Shown: positions 16,295 to 46,753 of the stretch, one piece after another | How the letters are laid out: each line of letters opens with the position of its first letter | Numbering within the stretch: position 1 is the first letter of the stretch | Source: Podarcis liolepis | Lineage: Eukaryota | DNA: 64,000 nucleotides | Reading direction: 5' to 3' (one strand) | Assembly: GCA_965112155.1 (NCBI GenBank) | Contig: OZ218107.1 | Position numbers and translations under genes: made by a program | The notes under the pieces: generated by a model | Databases searched by the model: none | Seen by the model: the letters and a program-made list of their open reading frames with translations, nothing else | What the model was told of the DNA's origin: nothing

Positions 16295-17050
16295 TTGCGT
16301 GGCGATTCCCGTCCCCTCCCACAGATGGAGTAAATAAAGACACCGGACACCAGAATTTAGGTTAATGGGCGAAAAATGGCCACAACTTTATTGATTACAG
16401 GTAAGAGTGGTATTGGCTTTAGGCATTGGTCCTAACAGACTATCCGGTCTAACCGGGAAGGGTTAAGCACCAACAGGGGGAGCCCCCGAGATGCACATCC
16501 CTAAGCGCTCCCCAAGGGGTTACCGCTCGGGAGCGCGCTTTAGGCCCTAGCCTCAGTAGGTTTCGGACGAGGCAACGCCCCCTGGAGTCCTTTAATGAAC
16601 TACCCTTCAAGATTTGGGGGAGGTGATGGCGTTCCTCTCCCCTGACTTCATTTGCATAACAATGCCCCTGTCAATGCCTACCGCCAAAACCGAGGAGTTG
16701 TGACGTTTTGTGACGAGGTAGGCGAAAAACCAAGTGACTTCTAAAATCCAGCCAATTAGCCAAATGGAAAAACTCCTACCAGGCCCCTTGCGGCGACCAG
16801 CCGAAGCCCATAGCAAAGTCCGAATGCAAACCTAGAGGGCGGGTGGGTGGGAAACTGTAGCTGCTGTAAGGAGAGAAAAGGGGTCAGCCAGGGCTGCCCC
16901 GACCTTAAATGCCCTTTAGTAACCCCGCCCCTACCGCCAGCCGATTGGCTGGCGCTGTGGGTAATGACTATTCATGAGAATGGGAATCCCTGAGTCCTGC
17001 GGGGCTGGCGCCAGCCCCGCAAGAATGTAAATGGGGGCGTGAGCCAGCAA
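16295..17050 (-). mobile_element. ~750-bp LTR-like repeat, copy A (possibly DIRS/Ngaro-derived)
   Basis: CpG-rich; on the minus strand: TTGC start, CCAAT (16944-48), GC box, ATTTAA, ENE-like motif, AATAAAGTTGTGGCC (16387-92), CACGCAA end; colinear homology with 45744-46753; no TSD seen. Confidence 0.8.
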
Positions 17051-17436
17051 CCCCCCCTCCTTAGGTCGGGAGTGGCTTTGTCCGTAAAGAAAACCCAACA
17101 CATGATCTCTTGCTCATATATAGGGGCTCTGCATGATGGAGGCATCTTCATGTATCATAATCATGGCAGAGGCCCTACTCAAAAGCAGGAGCTTGCTCAT
17201 TGCAGTTTCTTTACAGACAACTGTGCACAATGTGCTGTGGTTGGAGGAAGAAGAAGGCATCACATCAGGGAAAGGGCTGAAAGTGGGACCCCCATCCAAG
17301 AGGCAACAAAATTATGCCTTAGATGTGAATAATGTATAAATTGGATTTTCTCTCGGTTCTGTTTATAAACCAGTATGAATTCTGTTTCCTCCCTATTAAC
17401 ATTGCTTCATGAATTGATGATCCATTTCTGGTGCAG

Positions 17437-17610
17437 GTACTTGGAACTAGAAAGCAGCGGCCATAGAAATGAAATTAGATTGCACTACCGTTCAGGAAGC
17501 CATCGCTCACATACTGAAGTGTTTCCTTACATATTGGCAGACGACAAGTGGCACAGGCTCTCTTTAGCAATCAGTGCATCACACCTCATTTTGCATGTAG
17601 ACTGCAATAA
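17437..17610 (+). CDS. NELL2: NELL2 exon 4 equivalent, LamG/TSPN
   Basis: tgcag|...|gtaagt; YLELESSGHRNEIRLHYRSGSHRSHTEVFPYILADDKWHRLSLAISASHLILHVDCN(K); 174 bp, phase compatible with neighbours. Confidence 0.98.
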
Positions 17611-29046: not shown

Positions 29047-29201
29047 GCCTTCCTGTGGTGCAATGGGTCAGTGTACCTGGCTGTTAACCAGAAGGTTAGT
29101 AGTTCGAGCCCACCCAGGGACAGCTGTGGGAGGGATTCCTGCATTGCAGAAGCTTGGATTAGATGACCCTTGGGATCCCTTCTAACTCTAAGATTATATG
29201 A
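29047..29201 (+). mobile_element. SINE with tRNA-Asn(GTT)-derived head and CR1-like tail
   Basis: CTGTGGTGCAATGGGTCAG..GGCTGTTAACC..GTTCGAGCCCACCCAGGGAC followed by TTGGA-TAGATGACC..TCCCTTCTAACTCTAAGATT. Confidence 0.75.
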
Positions 29202-45033: not shown

Positions 45034-45743
45034 TATTAGATTATAATGATGATAGCATTGATCTGGGTCAGTTGAACATAAATTTTCCTCTTGATCTTTA
45101 GAAGCCTTGGTTTGGTTCCCACAGTGGCAACCACCAGTTCAAGTGTTTTGATAATCATATTCAAGTTAGCCTTTGCCAACCTGTGTAGTTTTTTTGGACC
45201 ATTATTATTATTTATTAAATTTGTATACCACCCTGTACCTGCAGGTCTCAGTGCTCTGTTAGCTGGGGCTAATGGGAGTTGTGGTCCAGAAAACCTGGAG
45301 GGCACCATGTTAGCAAACACTGCTCCTAAGTACTTGAAAATGATAGTGGTTGTAAACTATAATGGTTGTTGAGGAAGAAACTACTCACTGGTCCTGCTGA
45401 TGAGGTGCTAGGCTCTAGGTATCAAGAGCAAAATTCATATAGCAGCTGGTGGGGCATTGTTGCTCACTTGGCTTCTCAGTGCCATGTGTTGCTGCCAGGT
45501 ACCAAGAGGGAAAGTGAGAGGAGCTGGAGGCAGTGGGGAGTTTGGTATGGTGTGGAATGGTTCAGCTGCTGCATCTGCACCACACCAAGCTCCTTGCTGC
45601 CTCTCTTCCACTCTCAGTACCCAGCAGCAGTGAATGCCATTAGAAAGCCAAGTGAGTAATACTGCCCTGCCCTGGCAGCCACTACCGAATATATATTTGA
45701 GAAGTCTTTTTTAAAATCTGCTCCACTTCCTAGTGGGGAGGAG

Positions 45744-46753
45744 TTGCGGTGGACTGCGTGGCCACCCACTACTCACCGGGATGCGGGGGACTTTGTCTCC
45801 CGTCGCCTGGGGATCCCGGCCACGTCAGAATCCGGCCAGCCAATCCGCTGGTCGGTGGCGTGTGGCCGGGACAGTTTAAACCGAGGAGCGAGCCAGAGGA
45901 CTTCCTCTTTGGCTCGCTTCCTCAATCACCCACCCTTCCTCCCTATTTCACAGGTTAGGCACTGGCCTTGCTATGGACCTCGGTTGGTCGCCTTGGTTGT
46001 TCGAGGGGCCTGGTAGGAATTTTTTCCACTTGGCAAATTGGCACTGTCCACTTGGTTTTCGCCTACCTCGTAGCAATTGTCACAACTTTGTTAGGGTTGC
46101 GGTTAGGCATTGTTTGACCTTGTGTGGGGGAGGGGAGGTGTGGCTATCACCTGCCCCTCCATGCTTAAGGGTATTCTGTTAAAGAAATCTGGGGGTGCTG
46201 ATCTTGTCTGAAGCCTGGCTGGGGGGCTAGGGCCTTGACATGACCCCAATGGGAACACCAGGGGGAGCTTGAGTTGGTTCGCATCGACAGGGCTCCTCCT
46301 ACCAGTGGTTTACCCTTACCAGACTTCCTGCACATGGGCAGGAGTCAGATATAGTTGGGTCCAATCAATGCCTAAGCCAATACTGCTCACATTCTGTAAT
46401 TCAATAAAGTTGTGGCCAAAATTTGCCCAATAACATAAACCTAATATCTGTGTCCTTGTGTGAGTTATTTCCAATGAAGAAGAGTTTGGATTTGATATCC
46501 CGCCTTTCACTCCCCTTCAGGAGTCTCAAAGCGGCTAACATTCTCCTTTCCCTTCCTCCCCCACAACAAACACTCTGTGAGGTGAGTGGGGCTGAGAGAC
46601 TTCACAGAAGTGTGACTGGCCCAAGGTCACCCAGCAGCTGCATGTGGAGGAGCGGAGACACGAACCCGGTTTCCCAGATTACGTGACTACCGCTCTTAAC
46701 CACTACACCACACTGGCTCTCTGAGGGGGTGGCTGCGGGGTCTCGACACGCAA
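45744..46753 (+). mobile_element. ~750-bp LTR-like repeat, copy B, interrupted near its 3' end by a SINE
   Basis: TTGCG start, CAGCCAATC, TTTAAA, ENE-like motif 46012-46067, AATAAAGTTGTGGCC 46403, CACGCAA end; shares motif order with copy A. Confidence 0.8.
46476..46720 (-). mobile_element. tRNA-derived CORE-type (MIR-like) SINE
   Basis: Minus strand: A-box TGGTGTAGTGG, B-box-like GGTTCGTGTC, GGGTGACCTTGGGCCAGTCAC core, (TCT)n tail. Confidence 0.8.

What the first reader, a model, noticed from the sequence alone, without database searches (positions are those of the whole stretch)
16295..17050. Two diverged copies conserve a multi-helix RNA fold with compensatory changes
Seen in both copies despite low sequence identity in the middle. 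(i) Long-range helix TTAGGCATTG/CAATGCCTAA (B 46103-12/46366-75; A uses TAGGCATTG/CAATGCCTA). (ii) Nested helix TAAGGGTA/TACCCTTA (B 46166-73/46311-18) versus GAAGGGT/ACCCTTC (A 16457-63/16602-08), where the outer pair switches from T-A to G-C. (iii) Position-matched hairpins GGGGAGG..TCACCT(G)CCCC and GGGGAGC..GCTCC, plus a hairpin just 3' of helix ii with unrelated sequence in A and B. Helix i encloses ~250 nt and brings the poly(A) region next to the ENE-like motif. Inference: the family is selected as a structured RNA (packaging or replication signal, ribozyme-like domain, or lncRNA), not only as a promoter.
Basis: partly seen in the sequence, partly recalled or inferred. Interest (0 to 1): 0.72.

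Follow-up and report, generated by a model that had tools for sequence, protein, structure and literature searches.

The report
Folded RNA tail of Ngaro retrotransposons
The two repeats are leftover end-pieces of a known kind of jumping gene in a reptile genome, and their shared base-pairing pattern is conserved across distant families of that element, where it likely hides the first of two identical stop signals and would shield the finished RNA's tail.

Summary
The helices are at the stated coordinates. Both copies are solo A–X–B end-pieces of Ngaro (DIRS-order, tyrosine-recombinase) retrotransposons in NELL2-like introns; full elements in this genome read A1–gag–RT–YR–SGNH–B1–A2–X–B2. The fold is the B repeat. 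Two clades folded separately share 72 of 117/118 pairs, and a clade-1 structure holds in held-out families (20 of 21 related tests). Solo copies decay neutrally, so this is not a host-selected lncRNA. No Rfam family matches. Best model (inferred): in B1 the end of the SGNH ORF pairs over UGUA-CAAU and masks the poly(A) signal; in B2 the signal is open (predicted unpaired 0.17 vs 0.68; 19 of 20 elements), and an ENE-like U-loop in X catches the tail. A third clade lacks the masking helix, and no RNA 3' ends were seen. The scan reached this reading before on other genomes.

The parts
16295..17079 (-). Solo Ngaro A-X-B unit, family A (785 bp; AAAG... to ...GCAA; no target-site duplication)
   Evidence: Same ends in 30 of 30 loci; flanking repeat of 3 nt or more in 1 of 29 extracted copies; matches A2-X-B2 of L061 over its whole length at 86%
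16851..17079 (-). A repeat: likely promoter (CCAAT 16944-48, GC box 16923-31, TTTAA 16905-09)
   Evidence: A1=A2 over 217-230 bp in full elements; window A 1-229 matches A1; boxes read from sequence, function inferred
16687..16850 (-). X: unique spacer between A2 and B2, absent from the 5' end and from the B1 context
   Evidence: Gap between the A2 and B2 self-matches in L169, L170, L171, L173, L174
16717..16780 (-). ENE-like U5/U5 internal loop (GGUAGG-AG-UUUUU-CCA...UGG-UUUUU-CG-CCUACC)
   Evidence: Pattern in 108 of 136 X segments; A-U swap of the outer stem pair in L227 and L231
16697..16704 (-). GUCACAAC at the end of X, predicted to pair with GUUGUGGC just 3' of AAUAAA in the B2 context
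   Evidence: Unpaired probability of GUUGUGGC 0.05 in B2 vs 0.30 in B1; alignment folds
16295..16686 (-). B repeat (about 390 bp): the structured region of the finding
   Evidence: B1=B2 at 99.5-100% over 383-402 bp in L169, L170, L171, L173; starts at element position 394
16420..16680 (-). Helix i (16672-80 with 16420-28) enclosing about 250 nt
   Evidence: Nearly invariant in all clades; its inner-end pair (UA 19, AU 13, CG 12, GC 1 of 47) is the only pair above all 50 simulated alignments
16616..16643 (-). Hairpin H2 (GGGGAG..UCACCUCCCC)
   Evidence: Present in every clade by eye and by clade folds, in shifted registers
16457..16608 (-). Four-way junction closed by helix ii: short hairpin H4, long hairpin H5, long hairpin H6
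   Evidence: H4 p=0.005, H6 p=0.005, H5 p=0.25 against tree simulations; G-C to U-A swaps in H4 and H5 between clades
16444..16456 (-). Variable hairpin H7, 3' of helix ii
   Evidence: Unrelated sequences between families, absent in some
16366..16399 (-). UGUA (16396-99), AAUAAA (16387-92), predicted cleavage at CA near 16366
   Evidence: AATAAA exact in 149 of 154, UGUA within 14 nt in 135 of 154, CCA 19-21 nt after the hexamer in 151 of 154 B1 units; use not shown
45714..46753 (+). Solo Ngaro A-X-B unit, family B, interrupted by a later repeat of about 245 bp at about 46478-46722
   Evidence: Family ends AAAT... and ...GCAA; match breaks at 46477 and resumes near 46723
46012..46067 (+). ENE-like loop of copy B
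   Evidence: L031
46103..46408 (+). Structured B domain of copy B: helix i 46103-12/46366-75, helix ii 46166-73/46311-18, AAUAAA 46403-08
17438..17608 (+). Host exon, NELL2-like laminin-G domain (both elements lie in non-coding DNA around such exons; A is antisense to this exon)
   Evidence: phmmer E 2.9e-32 to NELL2 chains; Pfam Laminin_G_2

Best explanation
The two copies are decaying solo A-X-B end-pieces of Ngaro retrotransposons, and the conserved fold in their B repeat likely works in the parent element as a 3'-end switch: it would mask the poly(A) signal of B1, expose that of B2, and hold the new tail next to an ENE-like loop. Shown: element identity, B1=B2 repeats each with AAUAAA, X present only before B2, conserved pairing, neutral decay of solos. 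Inferred: (1) the RNA starts inside A1, so it must read through B1 into A2 to carry a template for the element's ends; (2) helix i closes the 250-nt domain so that whatever lies just 5' of B faces the poly(A) signal; (3) in B1 that is the end of the SGNH ORF, predicted to form about 26 bp down to UGUA-CAAU; (4) in B2 it is X, predicted to pair instead with GUUGUGGC 3' of the hexamer, leaving UGUA and AAUAAA open; (5) the tail added about 20 nt further would form U-A-U triples with the U-loop in X. The enclosed four-way junction is most likely a binding site for the element's own Gag/RT (packaging or priming); that step has no direct evidence.
For: Layout and domains. Clades 1 and 2 folded separately share 72 pairs. 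Held-out permutation tests pass in 20 of 21 non-independent comparisons. Tree simulation on the 72 pairs: 0.943 canonical vs 0.888±0.014, p=0.0025; distal B1 helix p=0.010. Compensatory swaps in the distal helix, e.g. G-C in 20 of 29 clade-1 vs C-G in 13 of 13 clade-2 sequences, and U-A in 4 clade-1 sequences where others have A-U/G-U; the 3' partner is non-coding. Predicted unpaired probability of AAU 0.17 (B1) vs 0.68 (B2), 19 of 20; of the 8 nt upstream 0.10 vs 0.65, 18 of 20; shuffling the coding end releases AAU (0.63, 20 of 20). L164 joins the end of A1 to the SGNH splice acceptor yet has a complete A1 start, as expected of a spliced RNA copied with an A2 template. Stranded bulk RNA reads of a related source cover YR/SGNH on the sense strand only and fall to about 0.3 over the first part of A2.
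Against: All-pairs G-test with a tree null: only 1 pair beats all 50 simulations. The 72-pair test is partly circular (pairs chosen on the same sequences); H5, the proximal extension and the GAGC hairpin are not significant, and H2 and helix ii share no pair in register between clades. Clade 3 fails the held-out test (0 of 3) and its 8 nt upstream of AAUAAA stay 0.46-0.71 unpaired in B1. The 20 elements come from about three clades, so they are not 20 independent cases. The 5' strand of the masking helix is also coding. No poly(A) junction or RNA end was seen; depth was low and the A-region dip may reflect divergence. 96 of 154 SGNH elements end at B1 with no A2-X-B2; I read this as later B1xB2 recombination, untested. 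Accessibility values are predictions.
Confidence: 0.6

Rival explanations
1. The B fold is mainly a packaging, dimerisation or reverse-transcription priming signal, and B1/B2 poly(A) choice is set by something else (weak site, splicing, enhancer in X).
For: The four-way junction is conserved yet lies wholly inside helix i and is identical in B1 and B2, so it cannot itself tell the two sites apart; Gag has a CCCH finger; the DIRS primer is unknown (PMC7192593, passages); clade 3 lacks the masking helix.
Against: It does not explain the compensated pairing between the SGNH end and the non-coding UGUA-CAAU stretch. It is compatible with the best model as a second role.
Confidence: 0.25
2. The inner domain is a self-cleaving ribozyme that makes the RNA 3' end or a primer.
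For: Compact four-way junction with conserved unpaired bases; other retroelements carry ribozymes (recalled).
Against: No Rfam family at gathering score and no ribozyme among 13 weak hits at E up to 10; a complete poly(A) signal set is conserved downstream; cleavage inside B1 would cut the genome-length RNA.
Confidence: 0.05
3. The solo units are host-selected lncRNA genes, or mobile non-autonomous units in their own right.
For: Each unit has promoter boxes, ENE-like loop and poly(A) signal; solos are very numerous (3946 and 6447 first-look candidates; not copy numbers); X-B joints occur in RNA reads; the same question is open for SIRE (PMC6681497, passage).
Against: Non-CpG private changes: 79/7114 paired vs 43/4189 unpaired (family A, p=0.71), 122/7791 vs 51/2922 (family B, p=0.55); about two thirds break the pair. 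Reads over X and B lie on both strands. The B|A junction needed as end template was found once per family with my patterns.
Confidence: 0.07
4. The helices are a by-product of GC content and shared ancestry.
For: Helix i is almost invariant; the strict test passes one pair.
Against: Shuffle z-scores, held-out tests, tree simulation, sequence-unrelated hairpins at the same places.
Confidence: 0.03

Closest known systems
Ngaro retrotransposons with SGNH hydrolase ORF (DIRS order; Xenopus DIRS-53_XT; PMC9210276, first fifth of the text and passages read)
   Same: A1-gag-RT/RH-YR-SGNH-B1-A2-B2 layout with identical repeats; A about 225 bp (236 bp in DIRS-53_XT)
   Different: B is about 390 bp here (152 bp there); a unique 165-bp X lies between A2 and B2; that paper has no occurrence of 'secondary structure' or 'solo'
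Solo AB repeats of Cafeteria Ngaros (PMC8547959, passages) and SIRE of Trypanosoma cruzi VIPER (PMC6681497, passages)
   Same: Isolated 3'-end units; SIRE is A2 + a short exclusive internal region + B2, like A-X-B
   Different: No RNA fold is mentioned in the passages read; X is longer here and holds a U-rich loop
ENE triple-helix stability elements (KSHV PAN; TE ENEs; Arabidopsis Evade, PMC12501189 passages; review PMC7583470 passages)
   Same: U-rich internal loop between two stems, G-C pairs next to the U runs, upstream of a poly(A) signal
   Different: The review lists TE ENEs from plants, fungi, slime mould and stickleback retroviruses, not DIRS-order elements; triplex formation is untested here; the primary survey (PMC4864102) was not held
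Retroviral poly(A)-site choice (HIV-1 poly(A) hairpin and U1 occlusion, HTLV-1 Rex-response element, foamy virus; PMC3694450 passages)
   Same: Two identical poly(A) signals, only the last to be used; RNA structure involved; a long folded domain bridging distance
   Different: Both signals are at the 3' end; the predicted mask comes from an upstream coding sequence brought in by a 250-nt enclosing helix

Membership tests
Ngaro retrotransposon | Split direct repeats A1...B1-A2-B2 | tested here: met
   5 of 11 10-kb loci (L169, L170, L171, L173, L174) show it; the others end at B1
Ngaro retrotransposon | gag-like ORF, RT/RH, tyrosine recombinase | tested here: met
   L170: RVT_1 E 2e-13; Phage_integrase E 2e-5 (just under the curated cut-off); CCCH finger E 2e-4 in ORF1
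Ngaro retrotransposon | SGNH hydrolase ORF after YR, no methyltransferase domain | tested here: met
   Lipase_GDSL_2 E 8e-6 to 4e-4 in 4 of 4 ORFs, below cut-off (0 of 1); Atlas score 0.98 to GDSL clusters; no methylase family hit on the two RT ORFs scanned
Ngaro retrotransposon | No target-site duplication | tested here: met
   1 of 29 and 0 of 26 copies with a flanking repeat of 3 nt or more; only an AA overlap
Ngaro retrotransposon | RT phylogeny within the Ngaro clade rather than PAT | not tested
   No reference RT sequences were fetched
Solo LTR of an ERV or Gypsy element | TG...CA ends with 4-6 bp target-site duplication | tested here: not met
   Ends are AAA...CAA without duplication
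ENE | U-rich internal loop flanked by two stems with adjacent G-C pairs | tested here: met
   108 of 136 X segments; 5' run of 5 U in 101 of 113 matches; upper C-G in 108 of 113 (the lower stem was part of the search pattern)
ENE | Placed near the RNA's polyadenylated 3' end | tested here: inconclusive
   About 330 nt 5' of AAUAAA, bridged by helix i; the actual RNA end was not observed
ENE | U-A-U triplex with poly(A) and stabilisation of a reporter RNA | not testable with these tools
   Needs melting/EMSA and reporter assays
Known self-cleaving ribozyme families | Match to an Rfam ribozyme model | tested here: not met
Known self-cleaving ribozyme families | Site-specific self-cleavage | not testable with these tools
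   Bench assay
Host-selected structured lncRNA | Paired sites constrained in the genomic copies themselves | tested here: not met

The most novel reading that the evidence does not exclude
Vertebrate Ngaro elements run their whole 3'-end programme through nucleic-acid folding: a context-dependent helix switch chooses B2 over B1 for polyadenylation, an ENE grips the tail, an undescribed four-way junction recruits Gag/RT, and the joined B|A recombination site folds as a single-stranded DNA hairpin like an integron attC site. This would be the first mechanistic map for split-direct-repeat retrotransposons and the first ENE in the DIRS order.
Probability: 0.35. Interest if true: 0.75.

Novelty: new variant of a known kind. 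Interest (0 to 1): 0.52.

Why it matters
How split-direct-repeat elements make an RNA that passes one poly(A) signal and stops at an identical one about 780 nt later was not addressed in the passages I read, and DIRS-order replication is largely untested. The fold gives specific, mutable base pairs to test that. An ENE-like loop and a new four-way-junction RNA in very abundant vertebrate repeats would also widen the known range of poly(A)-protecting structures. The two window copies themselves are ordinary neutral remnants.

Tried and rejected
Rfam: only a tRNA-like hit elsewhere in the window at gathering score; 13 weak hits at E up to 10 in six loci, none a ribozyme over the B fold. By-eye comparison with twister, hammerhead, hairpin, pistol and HDV cores (recalled) found no fit. 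A loop-loop pairing between H5 and H6 fits one subfamily and does not covary; dropped. Structure-aware alignment (Q-INS-i) is not installed, so all statistics use sequence-only alignments, which misregister clade 3. Covariance model versus sequence-only model on 22 loci: the CM gave more bits for most matches and covered clade 3 end to end, the sequence model gave better E-values; not decisive. A pattern search for the B1 context of window family B found nothing, so my prediction for that family is untested. Sequencing-run search: no RNA holder listed. One read lay gave low depth and no molecule ends; the poly(A) site remains unobserved. PDB search with an SGNH ORF gave nothing useful. Rows dropped: 15 of 169 SGNH loci had no complete B1 unit; four representatives with large indels were left out of the 47-row alignment; clade 3 and the five added solo fragments were left out of the tree simulation; 46 elements were thinned to 20. 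[quoted passage not shown]

Full report
Observation. Copy A is read on the minus strand and copy B on the plus strand. Each folds better than 100 of 100 shuffles (z -3.44 and -2.62). The window is vertebrate DNA; the exon next to A matches NELL2.

What the repeats are. Both belong to large families (3946 and 6447 first-look candidates, 40 scored each). Family A spans 16295-17079 with the same ends in 30 of 30 loci. Family B spans 45714-46753 with a later insertion. Ends are AAA...CAA with no target-site duplication (1 of 29, 0 of 26). A search for the end joined to the start gave one locus in which a tyrosine recombinase and an SGNH-type ORF are followed by B1, A2, X and B2. Of 11 ten-kb loci, five show the full A1-gag-RT-YR-SGNH-B1-A2-X-B2 layout (domains). 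This is the Ngaro layout (PMC9210276, first fifth and passages). Solo units are known from Cafeteria (PMC8547959, passages) and as SIRE (PMC6681497, passages).

Is the fold real? I collected 154 B1 units from 169 SGNH loci in about three clades (39 cluster representatives average 70% identity, minimum 50%). On a sequence-only alignment of 47 rows, clades 1 and 2 folded separately share 72 of 117 and 118 pairs; clade 3 shares only 24-26 in register, although single-sequence folds show hairpins at the same places. A clade-1 structure tested on held-out families has fewer broken pairs than permuted substitutions in 20 of 21 related comparisons, and in 0 of 3 for clade 3; window A versus B gives p=0.0006. 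Against tree simulations the 72 shared pairs are 0.943 canonical versus 0.888±0.014 (p=0.0025; partly circular); helix i, H4, H6 and the distal B1 helix pass, while H5, the proximal extension and the GAGC hairpin do not. The strict all-pairs test passes one pair, the inner end of helix i. I judge the fold real, with moderate statistical power.

Where selection acts. In 29 family-A and 26 family-B solos, private changes are as frequent at paired as at unpaired sites and mostly break pairs. The structure was therefore kept in transposing lineages, not in these copies. Rfam has no match.

Likely mechanism (inferred). B1 and B2 are identical and both carry UGUA, AAUAAA and a CCA about 20 nt later. 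If the RNA starts inside A1, it must pass B1 to include the B|A junction as template for the ends. L164, where A1 is joined to the SGNH splice acceptor but begins with a complete A1 end, fits this. Helix i closes the 250-nt domain and brings the sequence 5' of B against the signal. In B1 this is the end of the SGNH ORF, which pairs down to UGUA-CAAU with compensatory swaps. In B2 it is X, whose GUCACAAC pairs 3' of the hexamer. Predicted unpaired probability of AAU is 0.17 in B1 and 0.68 in B2 (19 of 20 elements, thinned from 46), and 0.63 when the coding end is shuffled. Clade 3 does not show the masking helix. X holds an ENE-like U-loop (108 of 136 segments) placed beside the B2 end; ENEs protect poly(A) tails and aid Evade transposition (PMC12501189, abstract start and passages; PMC7583470, passages). 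Retroviruses face the same two-signal problem (PMC3694450, passages). The four-way junction has no assigned role; a Gag/RT binding site is my guess, as the DIRS primer is unknown (PMC7192593, passages).

RNA evidence. Four raw-read runs of a related source were laid on L170. The two stranded bulk runs cover YR and SGNH on the sense strand, X-to-B joints occur in the two single-cell runs, depth is low, and no molecule ends or poly(A) junctions were listed (25 loose-end rows were not shown). Poly(A)-site use is unobserved.

Also seen. The joined B|A junction folds into a hairpin in 15 of 15 junction types, with a CGCAA/TTGCG to CACAA/TTGTG swap in three; mean z -2.3, 8 of 15 below -2. This suggests a folded single-stranded recombination site; the likeness to integron attC is recalled.

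Novelty. The element class and solo units are known. Eight searches listed no paper on this fold, but key subscription papers and all supplements were not seen. I stated the switch-plus-ENE reading before the first look-up; the scan holds the same reading, and the junction hairpin, for other genomes. These notes are not independent support. Verdict: a new variant of known kinds; interest 0.52.

Noticed in passing
B1|A2 junctions, e.g. L170:8230-8295; split between window 16295-16310 and 17040-17079: The joined element ends form a conserved hairpin with the crossover AA at the top of the basal stem (15 of 15 junction types; stem swap in L101, L177, L209; inner stems unrelated between clades). 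Possible folded ssDNA recombination site.
   Followed up: partly
L164:7136-8355: A1 joined directly to the SGNH splice acceptor, then B1: looks like a retroposed spliced mRNA with a full A1 start. L063, L165 and L166 have A1 joined close to the RH/YR region.
   Followed up: partly
L065-L244: 96 of 154 SGNH-bearing elements end at B1 with no A2-X-B2; solos seem far more numerous than these. Solos might also arise during reverse transcription as A-X-B mini-circles rather than by later recombination.
   Followed up: partly
L115 / L169:7881-7940: In a young family with many near-identical copies the SGNH ORF stops about 35 nt early, yet the stretch that pairs over UGUA-CAAU is kept after the stop.
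   Followed up: partly
L004, L022, L023, L030: Family-A copies inserted in or next to other copies of related families, often inverted.
   Followed up: no
G000 contig C20: A large share of the SGNH-bearing elements listed lie on this one 40-Mb contig, as on a repeat-rich sex chromosome.
   Followed up: no
window 46478-46722: A SINE-like repeat of about 245 bp inserted in the last part of copy B; 91-98% matches in L046 and L057.
   Followed up: no
window 29049-29122: Rfam tRNA hit just above the gathering score (33.6 bits), possibly a SINE head.
   Followed up: no
window 16706-16716: Copy A has lost the GUAGC strand that closes the X domain in other copies, a sign of decay.
   Followed up: partly
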